Part shown: in pieces, positions 1-35,766 of the stretch
How positions within the stretch are numbered: the first letter of the stretch is position 1
Layout of the letters: every line of letters starts with the position of its first letter
Assembly: GCA_041917755.1 (NCBI GenBank)
Contig: JAYRWY010000016.1
Span: forward strand, 112,866-176,865
DNA: 64,000 bases
Direction: 5' to 3'
Source: Alphaproteobacteria bacterium
Lineage (GTDB): Bacteria > Pseudomonadota > Alphaproteobacteria > UBA9219 > RGZA01
Program-made: the position numbers and the translations under genes
The notes under the pieces: generated by a model
The model's input: only the letters and a program-made list of their open reading frames with translations
What the model was told of the DNA's origin: nothing
The model's database searches: none

Positions 1-1618
1 GAATGATGGCGCAGGATCTGCAGGTGCAGGTTGGGTTGAAGCGGGTTCATACTTCCTGCAACTAGCGGCCGGCGGTAGTAACCGCGTATCGGGTACAGAT
101 ACCTTACCGATTATTACTGGCCCCAAATCCGAACTTATACGTCCTGAAAACGTTCAACAGGCATTCTTTAAAATGGCCGAATGGATTGTTGGAAAATATG
201 TGTCGCACATATCGGGTGGTGGCGCTGTATCCAACATGATTGGTAATACCGTTGCCGGCCGTAAATTTGTCGACTTGCTATTATTATTTATGGATCAGCT
301 AGGTGTCGTTTCTGGCTTATGGTCACCTGGAAGTGTCGCCTTCTATATTGATCTGGGGAATAGTCCGCTCGCAGAGCTGGTGGATTTGGGTCACCGGATG
401 ATCCGAACGTCGCTGGATTGCGTGGGCGCCGCCGTTGACCTTGGCGTGAATGAACCGCAACACGCCATGTATTCATCGCAGGTTGCGAGCAAGGAAAGCA
501 AAGCGTTTGGTCCAAAAGCCGGATTATTCTGGGCACAGATGGCTATTCCGGTACTATCCGCCTTTGCAAGTACATTGATGACGATGGGTGTGCTTATCGG
601 GATATTCACACCGATGTTACCGTTCATGAAGTTTGTATTGTCGGTGATGACGTGGCTGGCATTGGTTGTGGAATCCCTTGTCTGCGCGCCACTTTTGGCA
701 CTCGCTTACCTGACACCTTATGGCGAAGGTTTTGCCGGACAGAAAGTCGAGCCGAGCTATCACATCATCATCCATACCTTCTTAAGGCCGGTGATGACGA
801 TCTTTGGTCTGATTGCATCCATCTTGCTGTTTAATATCGCGGCGCATTTAGTCACCACATTCTATCAAGCGATTACATCAAGTGCGGGTGCGTTTAAAGG
901 TGGTATGTATGTCGTTGCCAAGATTGCATTTGGTAATATGTATGTGTCGATGCTGTACACCTGCTTGAACATGGCACTGAAGGTAATGGATACGTTCGCC
1001 AAGCACGCAACGCGCTGGATTGGTGGTAACAGCCATGAAGAAAATATGGGCGATGCCGCACAAACCATTCAGATGGCAGAAAAAGGTACAGCCATGTTGG
1101 GTCAACTTGCTGGTTCACTTGGCGGTGCCGCTTTGAGTGCTGGTAACACCATGGCGCATGGTAATGCACACGGTTCTGCAGGTGGCGGTGGCCGCAGTGG
1201 ACAAGCCGGCGCCAATGCACGCCAAATGACCGCACCTCAAGGACCAGCACGTTCGCCTGCTGCAGCTGCACCAGCTCCAGCACCTGCTCCGGCACCAGCG
1301 CCTGCGCCTGCTCCGGAACCGGCGGCTCCAGCTCTACCTGCGCCTTCACCTGATCCAGCGGCACCTATTGCAGCTCCGAACGTTGAACAAGGCGTGCAAG
1401 CTGCTGCTGCACAGCATGCACCGCCCGCATCTGCTGGCCCGCAAGCTGCACAACAATTCAGTCAAGCACTTAGTGGTATTAATGCGCTAGGAACCATTTC
1501 AAACCCTGCGCAAGCAGCGGCGGCTGCTAATGCTGTGACCTCACATCTAACTGCCCATCCAAATGACGTGCGTGGAGCTATTCAGGCCGGTCACCAAGCA
1601 CGCTTGAATATCCCATAA
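1..1618 (+). CDS. dotA: DotA/TraY family type IVB secretion inner-membrane protein, 5'-truncated by the window edge
   Basis: Frame is open from base 2 (NDGAGSAGAGWVEAGSYFLQL, a GWxxAGsyf motif). It continues through PLAELVDLGH, TPMLPFMKF..WL..VESLVCAPLLAL, GEGFAG and FLRPVMTIFGL to RWIGG, the DotA/TraY C-terminal membrane signature as I recall it. A Pro/Ala-rich tail follows. Confidence 0.85.
   Translation, partial: NDGAGSAGAGWVEAGSYFLQLAAGGSNRVSGTDTLPIITGPKSELIRPENVQQAFFKMAEWIVGKYVSHISGGGAVSNMIGNTVAGRKFVDLLLLFMDQLGVVSGLWSPGSVAFYIDLGNSPLAELVDLGHRMIRTSLDCVGAAVDLGVNEPQHAMYSSQVASKESKAFGPKAGLFWAQMAIPVLSAFASTLMTMGVLIGIFTPMLPFMKFVLSVMTWLALVVESLVCAPLLALAYLTPYGEGFAGQKVEPSYHIIIHTFLRPVMTIFGLIASILLFNIAAHLVTTFYQAITSSAGAFKGGMYVVAKIAFGNMYVSMLYTCLNMALKVMDTFAKHATRWIGGNSHEENMGDAAQTIQMAEKGTAMLGQLAGSLGGAALSAGNTMAHGNAHGSAGGGGRSGQAGANARQMTAPQGPARSPAAAAPAPAPAPAPAPAPAPEPAAPALPAPSPDPAAPIAAPNVEQGVQAAAAQHAPPASAGPQAAQQFSQALSGINALGTISNPAQAAAAANAVTSHLTAHPNDVRGAIQAGHQARLNIP
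1258..1375 (+). repeat. Low-complexity (Pro-Ala)n coding repeat in the DotA tail
   Basis: Translates to PAAAAPAPAPAPAPAPAPAPEPAAPALPAPSPDPAAPIAAP. Codons are degenerate, so the repeat is at protein level. Confidence 0.9.
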
Positions 1619-31509: not shown

Positions 31510-31593
31510 GTATAGCGGCTTGCGTAGCAATGCCTGTTTATATTACCTTTGGGTACCGCCAATTGTGGCATATCCCATACGCACCTAATTATT

Positions 31594-32220
31594 ATGAATA
31601 AGCAAGAAATTCTCGATGCGCTGGCCAAAATCCAGGCGGTGATTACCGATAGCCATCTGGTCTATACATCCGGCAAGCATGGCTCGACCTATTTTAACAA
31701 AGATGCGATTTACCCGCATACCGAACTGACATCGCAGCTATGCGAAGAAATTGCCAAGCATTTTGCAGGACGCGGCATTGAAGTGGTGATTGCGCCAGCC
31801 GTAGGCGGCATTATTTTATCGCAGTGGGTTGCGTATCATCTAACCAAAATCACGGGCCGTGAGGTATTGGGTGTGTATGCCGAAAAAGATGGCGATGGAT
31901 TTGTGATCAAACGCGGTTATGACAAATTATCATCCGGTAAAAAAGTTTTGATTGTTGAAGATATTTTGACCACTGGCGGATCGGTTAAAAAAGTAATTGA
32001 TACTGCACGAAATATTGGCGCCAATATTGTTGGGCTTGGCGTGCTGTGCAATCGTGGCGGTATAACGGCGAATGATGTATCTAACCCGCCAGAATTATTT
32101 GCATTGGTAGATGTGAAGTTTGATGCATGGGATGAGGCTGATTGCCCCTTATGCGCCAAGAAAATGCCCGTGAACACGGATGTGGGCCACGGCCGCAAAT
32201 ACGTTCAAAGCAAAGCTTAG
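31594..32220 (+). CDS. pyrE: Orotate phosphoribosyltransferase-like PRTase
   Basis: HLVYTSGKH, APAVGG, PRPP motif VLIVEDILTTGGS. Start taken as the ATG at 31594. Confidence 0.85.
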   Translation: MNKQEILDALAKIQAVITDSHLVYTSGKHGSTYFNKDAIYPHTELTSQLCEEIAKHFAGRGIEVVIAPAVGGIILSQWVAYHLTKITGREVLGVYAEKDGDGFVIKRGYDKLSSGKKVLIVEDILTTGGSVKKVIDTARNIGANIVGLGVLCNRGGITANDVSNPPELFALVDVKFDAWDEADCPLCAKKMPVNTDVGHGRKYVQSKA

Positions 32221-33206
32221 CGCTTATCTTTCAGTGAATTCGGCACATTGATGCCTTGTGCGTTGGCAAGCTGTGCCATGCGGGCAATTTGCCGTTCAAT
32301 ATAGGTATTAATCATACCAATGCGTTCTTCGCGGATAAGTGCGCGAATGGGGTCACCATTGTTATCTTCTTCGGTGAAGATGTAACGGATATATGGGCCT
32401 TGCGGGCCAAGCACCTGATGCACGGCGGCAGTGAGCGCCTGCGCTAATACGTTTTTGGCTGCGCCGCCAAGATTTTGAGCAGCAAGTTGCAATAAACCCA
32501 GCAAACTATCTTCAATCGAGCCTGCGTGAATGGTGGTGAGCACCAAGTGGCCTGTGGTAGCGGCACGTAAAATTTGTTCGGCAGCTGCAGGAGAGCGTAC
32601 CTCGCCCACCAGCAAATAGCGCGGCGTCCAACGTAAGGTGCGCTTCAATGGGGTTGCCCAGTCTTCACTGTTAGCCACCTGGATTTGATAGCAATAACCT
32701 TTATCGCCACATGGGCCTTCCAGAATATATTCAACGGGGTCTTCCACCGTCATGCCCACGCCGCCATAGCTGTTCAGGTATTCTTGCAGCAATGAAAAGC
32801 AGGTAGTGGTTTTACCGTGGCCGGTAGCACCGGAAAATACAATCAAGCCATCGCGGCGGCCAAGGTTACGCAAATAATTGGCAATATGCGGAGCATAACC
32901 CAGACCTTCTAACTTTGGGACATTGGGATTGATTTTACGCAACACCGCCCATACTTCGCCATTGGCCATGTTTTGATGGGCAAGACGAAAGCGCATGCCA
33001 TCATACGTAAAAGCAGCTTCGACATTATTGGCTTCGGCACGGAATTTTGCGGCCAACCGTTCAACGTCTTCGGCATAATCGGAATGCAGCGGTTGAATCC
33101 ATACGTTATTTTTGTCGCGTTGTGGTGTGCGATAGCGTGGCTGAGCGGGGGCATCAAGGCGTACATATAAATCCATGAATAATAAATCACGAAGCTTCTT
33201 ACTCAT
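32217..33206 (-). CDS. PilT-like secretion/pilus ATPase, copy 2
   Basis: Walker A GATGHGKTT, EDPVEY, Walker B LLVGEVR, His box TGHLVLTTIHA, C-terminal PIRALIRE. Confidence 0.88.
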   Translation of the reverse strand: MSKKLRDLLFMDLYVRLDAPAQPRYRTPQRDKNNVWIQPLHSDYAEDVERLAAKFRAEANNVEAAFTYDGMRFRLAHQNMANGEVWAVLRKINPNVPKLEGLGYAPHIANYLRNLGRRDGLIVFSGATGHGKTTTCFSLLQEYLNSYGGVGMTVEDPVEYILEGPCGDKGYCYQIQVANSEDWATPLKRTLRWTPRYLLVGEVRSPAAAEQILRAATTGHLVLTTIHAGSIEDSLLGLLQLAAQNLGGAAKNVLAQALTAAVHQVLGPQGPYIRYIFTEEDNNGDPIRALIREERIGMINTYIERQIARMAQLANAQGINVPNSLKDKR

Positions 33207-34219
33207 TTATCACCTATGCGTAAAAGTTTCGCGGATGTCTTATCAAGGTAAGTGGTAATCATACCCACTTTGTTTTCACGAATAAGGGAACGGACGGGAT
33301 CGCCCATATTGCCTGCTTCGGTCCATGCCATACGAACAGCTGGACCGGCCTCTGACATGGTTTGGTGGACCACAGCCGTTAAGCCTGCAGCAAGAATGTG
33401 GTTAGCGCCGCCGCCCATACCCTGTTCGGCAAGATGCATAAGACCCATAAGTGCTTCTTCGGCAGAACCGGCGTGCACCGTGGTTATTACCAAGTGGCCC
33501 GTGGTTGCTGCGCGCAATACCTGTTCGGCTGCTTGCGGGGTTCTGATTTCACCCACGAATATATAGTGAGGTGCCCAGCGCAGACTGCGTTTAATAGCAG
33601 GTGCCCAGCCGTCAGAGCCTTCAACTTCAACCTGAAAACAGAAGCCGCTTTCGCCGTGGCGACCTTTCATCACGTATTCCACCGGATCTTCAATGGTGAC
33701 CGCAATACCGCCATGGGCAGCCAAATAATCAATAAGCAACGAGCATGAAGTAGTGGTTTTACCGTGACCAGTAGCACCTGTAATCATAATCAAGCCATCG
33801 CGTTTTCCCAAATCACGTAGCGCCTGCACATAAGCGGGAACCATGCCCAGCTTATCCATTTTTGGAACATCGGTTTTAATCACACGAAGACACATCCAGT
33901 CTTCGCCATCGGCCATTTTTTGGCGCGACATACGCATACGCGTACCTTTGAATTGAAGAATGCTGTCTTCTTTTAAACCCTGGTTGCGCACGAAGTCGGT
34001 AATTTGACGCACTTCATCATCGAACTGGTGTGGCACTACGGCGTTGATGCGTTGCTTGCCTTTTTTCTGTCCCTGATAGATCGCCGCGCCATTGGAATCG
34101 AGGCGAATATACAAATCGCTCAGCTTGAGATCGCGAAAGAGTGATGGAGGAGACATGAACTGACCTGAAGACTGTTTGGAACCACCAGAAAAACTTTTCA
34201 TAGCTTTTAACCTTGTCAT
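33203..34219 (-). CDS. PilT-like secretion/pilus ATPase, copy 1
   Basis: GATGHGKTT, EDPVEY, IFVGEIR, TGHLVITTVHA, PVRSLIRE. Alignment with the paralog suggests the true start may be the ATG at 34156. Confidence 0.88.
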   Translation of the reverse strand: MTRLKAMKSFSGGSKQSSGQFMSPPSLFRDLKLSDLYIRLDSNGAAIYQGQKKGKQRINAVVPHQFDDEVRQITDFVRNQGLKEDSILQFKGTRMRMSRQKMADGEDWMCLRVIKTDVPKMDKLGMVPAYVQALRDLGKRDGLIMITGATGHGKTTTSCSLLIDYLAAHGGIAVTIEDPVEYVMKGRHGESGFCFQVEVEGSDGWAPAIKRSLRWAPHYIFVGEIRTPQAAEQVLRAATTGHLVITTVHAGSAEEALMGLMHLAEQGMGGGANHILAAGLTAVVHQTMSEAGPAVRMAWTEAGNMGDPVRSLIRENKVGMITTYLDKTSAKLLRIGDK

Positions 34220-34434
34220 ACTCGGCTTAAGATAGCGTTATTGAATGGTAAACTGTTGTTTTACAATTATCTCTAAATCCTTATTATCTTTGTACTGAAT
34301 CCGAAAGGAATGAGGGCGACGGTAGTGCCACAAAGCCATTGATAACAGGCCTTCGTGCAAGTCAGTGGATTTTTTAATCACCAAACGCTACCTCTAAACC
34401 TTCGTCATGATAGCACAGTGCCCCGATAGATAAA

Positions 34435-35766
34435 ATGAGCCAGACCATTATCACCCCAAAAACGCCAACCGGAACCATGGAATTGCTGCCACGCGAGCAG
34501 ATGATGTTCCAAAAAATGCTGGATACCATTCGCCAGAAATTCGAGCGTTACGGTTTTCAACCCATCGAAACACCAGTGTTTGAAGAAACCAATATTCTGC
34601 TTACCAAAAGTGGCGGTGAAACAGAAAAGCAAGTTTACTTCGTGCAATCAACTGGTTCCCGTCAGCAAGGCCATGAACCGGATTTGGCATTACGTTTTGA
34701 CCTGACGGTTCCCCTCGCCCGCTATGTAGCACAGCACCAGAATGAACTGGCATTCCCGTTCCGCAGATACCAGATGCAACGCGTCTACCGAGGGGAGCGC
34801 GCACAAAAAGGCCGCTTCCGCGAATTCTACCAATGCGATATCGACGTGATTGGCCGCGAGACATTATCACCGGCCTATGATGCAGAAATGCCCGTGGTGA
34901 TTGCCGATATCTTCCGTGATTTGAAAATTGGCGCATTCACCATCAATGTTTCAAACCGCAAGATTTTGAAGGGATATTTGGACAGCATCGGCATTACCGC
35001 CGCTGATGCCAAGGCGCAGGTATTGCGTGAAATTGATAAGGCCGATAAAATTGGCTGGGGTGAAGTTGAAAAGAACCTGACAGCTGCAGGTCATACAAAC
35101 CTTGGTGCATTACTCAAGCTACTTAGCCATGATGCAGATAATCAAACACGCCTGAATGAGCTTAAAGCACTATGCGGTACAAATGCTGAAGCCGTTGAAG
35201 GTTTGAATGAAATTGCACTATTGCTGAGCACCACTGCAGATATGGGCGCGGGTGATGTTATCCGCTTTAATCCTGCTATCACGCGTGGCCTCGATTACTA
35301 TACGGGCACAGTGTATGAAACATTCCTGAATGAACACAAAGCCTTTGGCAGCATTTGTTCAGGCGGGCGTTATGACAACCTTGCCAGCTATTATACCAAA
35401 TCGAAATTGCCGGGCGTAGGCATCTCGATTGGTCTCACCCGCCTTTTCGATCAGATGCGTCATGCAGGTTTGGTGAATGATGCGCCCAGCAGCGTGAAGG
35501 TGCTTATTACCATGATGGATGAAACATTGGGCAGTGATTATCGCCGCATCGCAACGCAATTGCGTGCCGCAGGTATTAATACCGAGATTTATCTGGAAGC
35601 CGATAAACTCGGCAAACAGATTAAATACGCGGATAAAGCTGGCATTCCATTTGCCCTTGTGATGGGCAGTGATGAAAAAGCCAAAGGCGTCGTTGCGCTG
35701 AAGAATTTAAAAACCAGCGAACAGATTCAAGGCGATGTGCCAAGCATCATCAAACATCTAGCCTAG
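34435..35766 (+). CDS. hisS: Histidine--tRNA ligase
   Basis: LRFDLTVPLAR, RGERAQKGRFREFYQCD, RGLDYYTG, GGRYD. Confidence 0.98.
   Translation: MSQTIITPKTPTGTMELLPREQMMFQKMLDTIRQKFERYGFQPIETPVFEETNILLTKSGGETEKQVYFVQSTGSRQQGHEPDLALRFDLTVPLARYVAQHQNELAFPFRRYQMQRVYRGERAQKGRFREFYQCDIDVIGRETLSPAYDAEMPVVIADIFRDLKIGAFTINVSNRKILKGYLDSIGITAADAKAQVLREIDKADKIGWGEVEKNLTAAGHTNLGALLKLLSHDADNQTRLNELKALCGTNAEAVEGLNEIALLLSTTADMGAGDVIRFNPAITRGLDYYTGTVYETFLNEHKAFGSICSGGRYDNLASYYTKSKLPGVGISIGLTRLFDQMRHAGLVNDAPSSVKVLITMMDETLGSDYRRIATQLRAAGINTEIYLEADKLGKQIKYADKAGIPFALVMGSDEKAKGVVALKNLKTSEQIQGDVPSIIKHLA

What the first reader, a model, noticed from the sequence alone, without database searches (positions are those of the whole stretch)
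32217..34219. Orphan tandem pair of divergent PilT-like retraction ATPases
Two overlapping paralogs share unusual substitutions: Walker A GATGHGKT, LRW(T/A)P(R/H)Y instead of LRQDPD, N-terminal DLY(V/I)RLD, and G-x-[HC]-G-x-x-G-[FY]-C-x-Q. They keep an AIRNLIRE-like helix (PIRALIRE, PVRSLIRE) and lack the PilB tetra-Cys motif. The DLY and G..G.C.Q features recall type IVb pilus PilT2-type ATPases of ICEs (from memory). No pilin or assembly genes are adjacent. Inference: a lineage-specific PilT/PilU-like two-motor or hetero-hexameric engine for a type IVb pilus or the Dot/Icm machine.
Basis: partly seen in the sequence, partly recalled or inferred. Interest (0 to 1): 0.68.

Follow-up and report, generated by a model that had tools for sequence, protein, structure and literature searches.

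The report
Duplicated type IVb pilus retraction motors
These two neighbouring genes encode intact relatives of BfpF, the motor that retracts E. coli bundle-forming pili; they have left their type IVb pilus operon and are kept side by side across a whole order of uncultured Alphaproteobacteria, possibly as a main motor plus a helper motor.

Summary
Observation confirmed: two intact, 46%-identical ATPase genes overlap by ATGA between pyrE and hisS, with every motif as described. They are not PilT/PilU or DotB/TraJ; AU tests reject both groupings. They fall in a 100/100 clade with BfpF and the 'PilT2-slot' ATPases of type IVb pilus (T4bP) operons, so most of the 'unusual' motifs are family traits.

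They are orphans only locally. The genome holds a T4bP operon beside Dot/Icm genes, with no ATPase after pilS, where outgroup alphaproteobacteria and plasmids carry this gene. It also holds a third paralogue and no canonical PilT. In 301 alphaproteobacteria the family tracks the T4bP secretin (35/36) far better than DotB (17/36).

The pair is adjacent in 52/61 genomes of the order, and both copies are under purifying selection here (dN/dS about 0.05). The downstream copy is invariant at catalytic sites; the upstream copy is faster, sometimes degenerate or lost.

Best reading: core plus accessory T4bP retraction motor, parallel to PilT/PilU. Cooperation and the hetero-hexamer are untested, and service to another pilus system remains possible. 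The scan noted this pair and lone BfpF-type orphans in other genomes before.

The parts
32217..33206 (-). Paralogue A (downstream), 329-aa BfpF-family ATPase; putative core T4bP retraction motor
   Evidence: no deviation at 15 catalytic positions in 29 genomes; dN/dS 0.05-0.07; AF2 pLDDT 93
33203..34219 (-). Paralogue B (upstream), 338-aa BfpF-family ATPase; putative accessory motor. True start may be a later ATG, since congeners are 318-332 aa
   Evidence: all 15 catalytic positions intact here, dN/dS 0.04-0.05; faster-evolving across the order
33203..33206 (-). ATGA overlap of the B stop and the A start; suggests translational coupling (inferred)
   Evidence: sequence; spacing of -4 to +23 nt in most order members
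34220..34434 (.). 215-bp AT-rich divergent intergenic region between B and hisS; presumed promoter region, no sigma-70 match on the minus strand
   Evidence: 5 promoter-like hits against 3.5 expected: not significant
31549..32220 (+). PyrE-like phosphoribosyltransferase, convergent, stop codons overlapping A's; flanking gene only (likely start 31594)
   Evidence: this flank is kept in the genus only
34435..35766 (+). hisS, divergent; flanking gene only
   Evidence: also beside a family member in G178 and G230
173..1618 (+). DotA/TraY-family ORF, 30.6 kb from the pair; part of the dispersed Dot/Icm system, not of the pair's unit
   Evidence: TIGR04346 125 bits against cut-off 100

Best explanation
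A and B are BfpF-family ATPases, the retraction-motor family of type IVb pili. SHOWN: family membership, intact catalytic residues, purifying selection, and a chromosomal T4bP operon elsewhere (G000 C17: pilL-N-O-P-Q-R-S-M-V) with no ATPase after pilS, where relatives carry this gene. FROM KNOWN FAMILIES: such proteins form hexameric rings that bind the inner-membrane platform and hydrolyse ATP to pull pilins back into the membrane; BfpF does this for the EPEC bundle-forming pilus. INFERRED: the gene left the operon and duplicated near the base of this order. A is the core retraction motor acting on PilR in trans. B is a co-expressed, dispensable helper, most likely a separate ring, that adds force or tunes retraction, a parallel to PilT/PilU. 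I put family identity at about 0.97, at least one copy retracting the T4bP at about 0.8, and the core-plus-helper arrangement on that same pilus at about 0.55.
For: Tree: 100/100 clade with BfpF and pilS-adjacent plasmid ATPases; AU rejects PilT/PilU and DotB/TraJ. Profile match to BfpF is full-length, E 1e-35, against E 1e-23 from residue 54 for PilT. Homologues sit after pilR/pilS in plasmid T4bP operons and in G107, G131, G204, G222, G352; none was seen within 1.5 kb after pilR in the 30 order loci read, two of which end at pilR. Co-occurrence with a PilN-type secretin is 35/36 against 16/265. PilR is found in 59/61 and canonical PilT in 0/61 order genomes. Asymmetry: mean identity A 70%, B 60%; catalytic deviations 0 in A, 13 in B; B missing with A kept in G029, G054, G059. 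In four genomes of one genus A lies three genes from pilL.
Against: There is no physical or genetic evidence that A and B interact, or that either binds PilR. The genome has two other pilus-type systems with no retraction ATPase of their own (C3, C7), and a third paralogue. In G027 the pair lies directly downstream of the C7-type operon. B in this genome has no PilU-like C-terminal tail, which PilT-PilU coupling needs (bioRxiv 10.1101/2025.10.30.685630). Tandem retention could reflect co-regulation alone. Retraction is inferred from BfpF only; I found no functional data on the PilT2-slot proteins.
Confidence: 0.55

Rival explanations
1. Division of labour between machines: the paralogues are BfpF-family motors, but one serves the T4bP and the others were recruited to the genome's other type IV filament systems (the MSHA-like operon on C3 or the atypical secretin/PilB/PilC operon on C7).
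For: Three paralogues and three PilB/PilQ-type systems, with no canonical PilT. Close orthologues of the C7 platform occur only in this order plus G178, G210, G230, the lineage that holds the A/B/C subclade. The pair follows the C7-type operon in G027. A and B have different conserved N-terminal loops. V. cholerae PilT serves two different pili (PMC6762196).
Against: The G027 adjacency is one case among the 23 order genomes compared. Five genomes with distant C7-type platforms have no family member. G204, G352 and G080 have 2-4 paralogues with no strong PilB-type hit. Persistent tandem coupling and one-sided loss of B fit a shared job better. The lineage overlap is one event, not independent evidence.
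Confidence: 0.25
2. A and B form an obligate hetero-hexamer that retracts the T4bP.
For: Overlapping genes, adjacent in 52/61 genomes despite changing flanks; B loses catalytic residues in some lineages yet stays full-length, as a structural subunit might.
Against: B is cleanly absent with an unchanged A in three genomes; most outgroup genomes have a single gene; PilT and PilU, the known pair, act as separate homohexamers (PMC6821130).
Confidence: 0.1
3. The pair energises or remodels the Dot/Icm type IVB secretion system.
For: The genome has dotD, a DotB, icmT, a coupling-protein-like gene and dotA, and dotD-C-B runs into the T4bP operon in many order members; the family is over-represented in DotB-positive genomes (17/21).
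Against: A true DotB is present (TIGR02524 408 bits against 50-70 for the pair); AU rejects pair+DotB/TraJ; 19/36 family-positive genomes have no DotB hit, while 35/36 have PilN.
Confidence: 0.06
4. They are canonical PilT/PilU of a type IVa system, or one copy is a decaying duplicate.
For: TIGR01420 is the best NCBIfam hit, solved-structure hits are PilT/PilU, and JGI names relatives 'PilT'. B is degenerate or broken in a few relatives.
Against: Scores of 121 and 137 bits against a cut-off of 319; BfpF itself scores 129; no BfpF chain appeared among the PDB hits, so PilT wins by default; AU p=2e-9; dN/dS 0.04-0.07 for both.
Confidence: 0.02

Closest known systems
BfpF, retraction ATPase of the EPEC bundle-forming (type IVb) pilus
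   Same: Same clade (99/96 subclade); about 320 aa; full-length match with 29-31% identity; aromatic-x-P-R-Y before Walker B (MRYNPRY against LRWTPRY); glycine-rich insertion after the Asp box; no tetra-Cys; ends one helix after the AIRNLIRE-like helix.
   Different: bfpF is single, plasmid-borne and inside its operon after bfpE. Here there are three chromosomal, vertically kept paralogues, all outside the operon, two of them a conserved overlapping pair.
PilT2-slot ATPases of R64/PAPI-1-type T4bP operons (PAPI-1 pilL2-M2; Burkholderia pseudomallei Tfp7 PilT2)
   Same: Same 100/100 clade; same operon type as G000 C17. B. pseudomallei pilT2 also lies outside its operon (PMC3984277), a precedent for detachment.
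   Different: Those are single genes after pilS or next to the operon; here they are unlinked and duplicated. The gene after pilS in an IncI1 (R64-type) plasmid is a lytic transglycosylase, not an ATPase.
PilT/PilU pair of type IVa pili
   Same: Tandem paralogous ATPases, one conserved and one accessory; same fold (TM about 0.7) and catalytic residues; often unlinked from assembly genes (own knowledge).
   Different: Different clade, so an independent duplication; lacks PilT's C-terminal helices and PilU's tail; the conserved copy is downstream here, whereas pilU follows pilT (PMC6762196).
DotB / TraJ of type IVB secretion systems
   Same: PilT-like ATPase without the PilB N-terminal domains; a Dot/Icm system is present in the same genome.
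   Different: Separate clade; the genome's real DotB is at C17:225000-226202.

Membership tests
BfpF clade of PilT-like ATPases | Groups with BfpF, apart from PilT/PilU, DotB/TraJ and extension ATPases | tested here: met
   (100/100); clade recognised in PMC5424180
BfpF clade of PilT-like ATPases | Walker A and B, Asp-box glutamates, two arginine fingers, His box | tested here: met
   15 of 15 positions match BfpF and PilT in both copies, apart from T/S after the Walker A lysine
BfpF clade of PilT-like ATPases | No tetra-cysteine zinc motif and no PilB N-terminal domain | tested here: met
   PMC5424180
BfpF clade of PilT-like ATPases | Host encodes a T4bP (PilN secretin, PilO, PilQ, PilR, PilS/bundlin pilin) | tested here: met
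   35/36 co-occurrence
BfpF clade of PilT-like ATPases | Gene lies inside the T4bP operon | tested here: not met
   On another contig here; in-operon in outgroups. This is typical, not defining: B. pseudomallei pilT2 is also outside
BfpF clade of PilT-like ATPases | Drives pilus retraction through the platform protein | not testable with these tools
PilT/PilU (TIGR01420) | Score over the curated cut-off of 319 | tested here: not met
   121 and 137 bits
PilT/PilU (TIGR01420) | One clade with PilT and PilU | tested here: not met
   AU p=2.3e-9
PilT/PilU (TIGR01420) | AIRNLIRE-type helix | tested here: met
   PIRALIRE and PVRSLIRE align to it; also present in variant form across the BfpF clade
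PilT/PilU (TIGR01420) | Second motor depends on the first and couples through a C-terminal tail | tested here: inconclusive
   B is never seen without A in the genomes searched, but has no tail in this genome; dependence itself is untestable here
DotB/TraJ (TIGR02524, TIGR02525) | Score over cut-off and one clade with DotB/TraJ | tested here: not met
   50-85 bits against cut-offs of 463 and 368; AU p=1.7e-55
DotB/TraJ (TIGR02524, TIGR02525) | dotD-dotC-dotB-icmT context | tested here: not met
   That context belongs to C17:225000

The most novel reading that the evidence does not exclude
Type IVb pili in this alphaproteobacterial order evolved a two-motor retraction engine independently of PilT/PilU, by duplicating BfpF: a conserved core ATPase plus a physically coupled partner (stacked or mixed ring, without PilU's tail) that in some lineages has become a catalytically impaired regulator.
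Probability: 0.35. Interest if true: 0.62.

Novelty: new variant of a known kind. Interest (0 to 1): 0.42.

Why it matters
Among type IVb pili, BfpF is the only retraction ATPase for which I found functional data, and my library searches found no paper joining BfpF with Alphaproteobacteria. A conserved duplicate pair would be a second, independent origin of a two-motor pilus engine and a natural test of why PilT needs PilU. It also shows that these small-genome uncultured bacteria keep a probably retractile type IVb pilus next to a Dot/Icm system, which fits a host- or prey-contact lifestyle (inference). It corrects the database label 'PilT', since no NCBIfam model for this family scored. The proteins themselves belong to a known family, which caps the surprise.

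Tried and rejected
The Pfam DotA model rang nowhere (uninformative); NCBIfam found dotA. Promoter and terminator scans gave nothing usable. GC content of the pair is like the rest of the window, with no sign of an island. PDB sequence and fold searches rank PilT/PilU first, but no BfpF chain was among the hits, so they cannot place the family. The ESM Atlas gave only generic PF00437 clusters. The original PAPI-1 and BfpF papers were not held. Rejected: chance ORFs; a decaying copy; canonical PilT/PilU; DotB; a functional link to pyrE or hisS (flanks change outside the genus); H in the Walker A as a special signature (H, N, Q, A, S and M all occur there). Fisher tests on co-occurrence overstate significance because kin are not independent, so only counts are used. 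dS is near saturation, so the dN/dS values are rough. The careful tree and AU tests used 40 of the 109 rows.

Full report
OBSERVATION. The window holds two minus-strand ORFs: B at 33203-34219 (338 aa) and A at 32217-33206 (329 aa), overlapping by ATGA. They are 46% identical and both hit PF00437. An AlphaFold2 model of A (pLDDT 93, pTM 0.88) has the two-domain PilT-like fold, TM about 0.7 to PilT, PilU and DotB.

FAMILY. The best NCBIfam hit is PilT (TIGR01420), but at 121 and 137 bits against a cut-off of 319; BfpF itself scores 129. In plasmids, the full-length matches include annotated BfpF and ATPases lying after pilR or pilS in type IVb pilus (T4bP) operons of Cupriavidus, Polaromonas, Pseudomonas, Vibrio, Serratia, Nitratidesulfovibrio and Escherichia; the top hits are unlinked homologues on alphaproteobacterial megaplasmids. 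A 109-row tree and a careful 40-row tree place A, B and these proteins in one clade (100/100, stem 1.46), apart from PilT, PilU, DotB/TraJ and extension ATPases; inside it A and B join BfpF in a 99/96 subclade. AU tests reject pair+PilT/PilU (p=2e-9) and pair+DotB/TraJ (p=2e-55). A profile of A matches BfpF end to end (E 1e-35) and PilT only from residue 54 (E 1e-23). The 'unusual' motifs are mostly family traits: BfpF reads MRYNPRY where A reads LRWTPRY, the glycine-rich insertion ending in Q is clade-wide, and the Walker A position holding H varies freely; only the RLD after DLY and the W of LRW are narrower. A BfpF clade without the tetra-Cys motif is recognised in PMC5424180. BfpF drives retraction of the EPEC bundle-forming pilus (PMC12531336; PMC4810605).

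GENOME CONTEXT. The genome is a 2.14-Mb, 100%-complete alphaproteobacterium. It has a third paralogue, C, at C10:81436-82584 behind secD, with a proline-rich tail. Contig C17 carries Dot/Icm genes (coupling-protein-like gene, dotD, dotB, icmT) followed by a T4bP operon: TcpQ-domain pilL, pilN, pilO, a pilP-position gene, pilQ, pilR, pilS, a pilM-position gene and a pilV-like pilin, then a Tad-like locus. Only about 130 bp separate pilS from the next gene. In other alphaproteobacteria (G107, G131, G204, G222, G352) the family gene sits in that operon after pilR/pilS, so the gene here has most likely moved out. Two more pilus-type systems exist, on C3 and C7. No canonical PilT passes the cut-off in this genome or in 60 others of the order. 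A DotA-family ORF lies at window 173-1618.

DISTRIBUTION. In 301 alphaproteobacterial genomes the family occurs in 36; 35 of these have a PilN-type secretin (the miss is 78% complete), against 16 of the other 265. DotB is found in only 17 of the 36, and 4 DotB-positive genomes lack the family. Kin are not independent, so these are counts, not tests. In the order, A and B are adjacent in 52 of 61 genomes (my count), PilR is found in 59, and many carry a third copy. The flanks change while the pair stays together. G046 (one of the 52) and G100 (one of the 16 and of the 4) are unpublished genomes; removing them changes each count by one.

ASYMMETRY. Both copies are under purifying selection against four congeners (dN/dS 0.04-0.07, dS near saturation), so neither is decaying here. 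Across 26 genomes A orthologues average 70% identity and B 60%, A higher in 322 of 325 comparisons (these loci were mostly picked by score to A, which may inflate the gap). At 15 catalytic positions A shows no deviation in 29 genomes; B shows 13 deviations in 5, including loss of the Walker B glutamate, an arginine finger and a His-box histidine in G044. In G029, G054 and G059 a dihydroorotase-like gene, which precedes B in G020 and G028, runs straight into A, so B was lost. B without A was not seen in the genomes searched. A and B keep different conserved N-terminal loops.

MECHANISM. Shown: family, intact active sites, selection, a cognate pilus operon lacking this gene. From known families: a hexameric ATPase that engages the platform protein and depolymerises the pilus. 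Inferred: A is the core T4bP retraction motor acting in trans on PilR, and B is a co-expressed, dispensable helper, as PilU is to PilT (PMC6821130; PMC6762196). I give this 0.55. The main rival (0.25) is that paralogues serve different machines: close orthologues of the C7 system occur in the same lineage as the A/B/C subclade, the pair follows that operon in G027, and one PilT serves two pili in V. cholerae. Against it, A lies three genes from pilL in four genomes of another genus, so both adjacencies may be rearrangement accidents; distant C7-type systems run without this family; and other lineages multiplied the gene without a strong PilB-type hit. An obligate hetero-hexamer (0.10) fits poorly with clean loss of B. 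A Dot/Icm role (0.06) and canonical PilT/PilU or decay (0.02) are largely excluded. Unlike PilU, B here has no C-terminal tail (compare bioRxiv 10.1101/2025.10.30.685630), so any coupling would differ. No complex could be modelled.

NOVELTY. The proteins are members of a known, little-studied family, and detachment from the operon has a precedent in Burkholderia pilT2 (PMC3984277). What I did not find described is an order-wide, coupled, asymmetric duplicate pair of BfpF-type motors (the library is incomplete). Earlier notes of this scan saw the same pair in another genome and BfpF-type orphans elsewhere; they are leads, not support. Verdict: new variant of a known kind, interest 0.42.

Noticed in passing
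G000 C10:81436-82584 (L023:8437-9585, minus strand): Third BfpF-family paralogue behind secD, with an approximately 75-aa proline-rich C-terminal tail; conserved at this site in the family, dN/dS about 0.1.
   Followed up: partly
G000 C17:204500-247600 (L021, L022): Dot/Icm genes, a T4bP operon and a Tad-like locus lie in one 43-kb run; dotD-dotC-dotB-pilL...pilR order is kept across the order.
   Followed up: partly
G000 C7:256887-266415 (L025): Atypical type IV filament operon: secretin, an ASH/Ig-domain protein, PilB-like ATPase, PilC-like platform, two unknown genes and a pilin-like gene without an N-methyl Pfam hit. Close orthologues only in this order and three other genomes of 301.
   Followed up: partly
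L261-L299 (order relatives); G000 C17:235322, C5:123054, C11:79437: PilS-type major pilins are tandemly expanded (2-4 copies after pilR) in most order members; G000 has one in the operon and two elsewhere.
   Followed up: no
L058:8995-11512 and L180:3995-6509 (Polaromonas JS666 plasmids): These T4bP operons carry two small ATPases either side of pilM: one BfpF-clade, one falling outside that clade. A second, unrelated two-ATPase arrangement in a T4bP.
   Followed up: partly
L016 (G044) and L019 (G032), upstream copy: Full-length B orthologues with several catalytic residues replaced; possible pseudo-ATPases.
   Followed up: partly
window 173-1618: DotA/TraY-family ORF on a different contig from the main Dot/Icm cluster.
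   Followed up: partly
L056, L171, L177 (Bosea and Acetobacter large plasmids): Stand-alone members of the same ATPase family on alphaproteobacterial megaplasmids, away from pilus genes.
   Followed up: no
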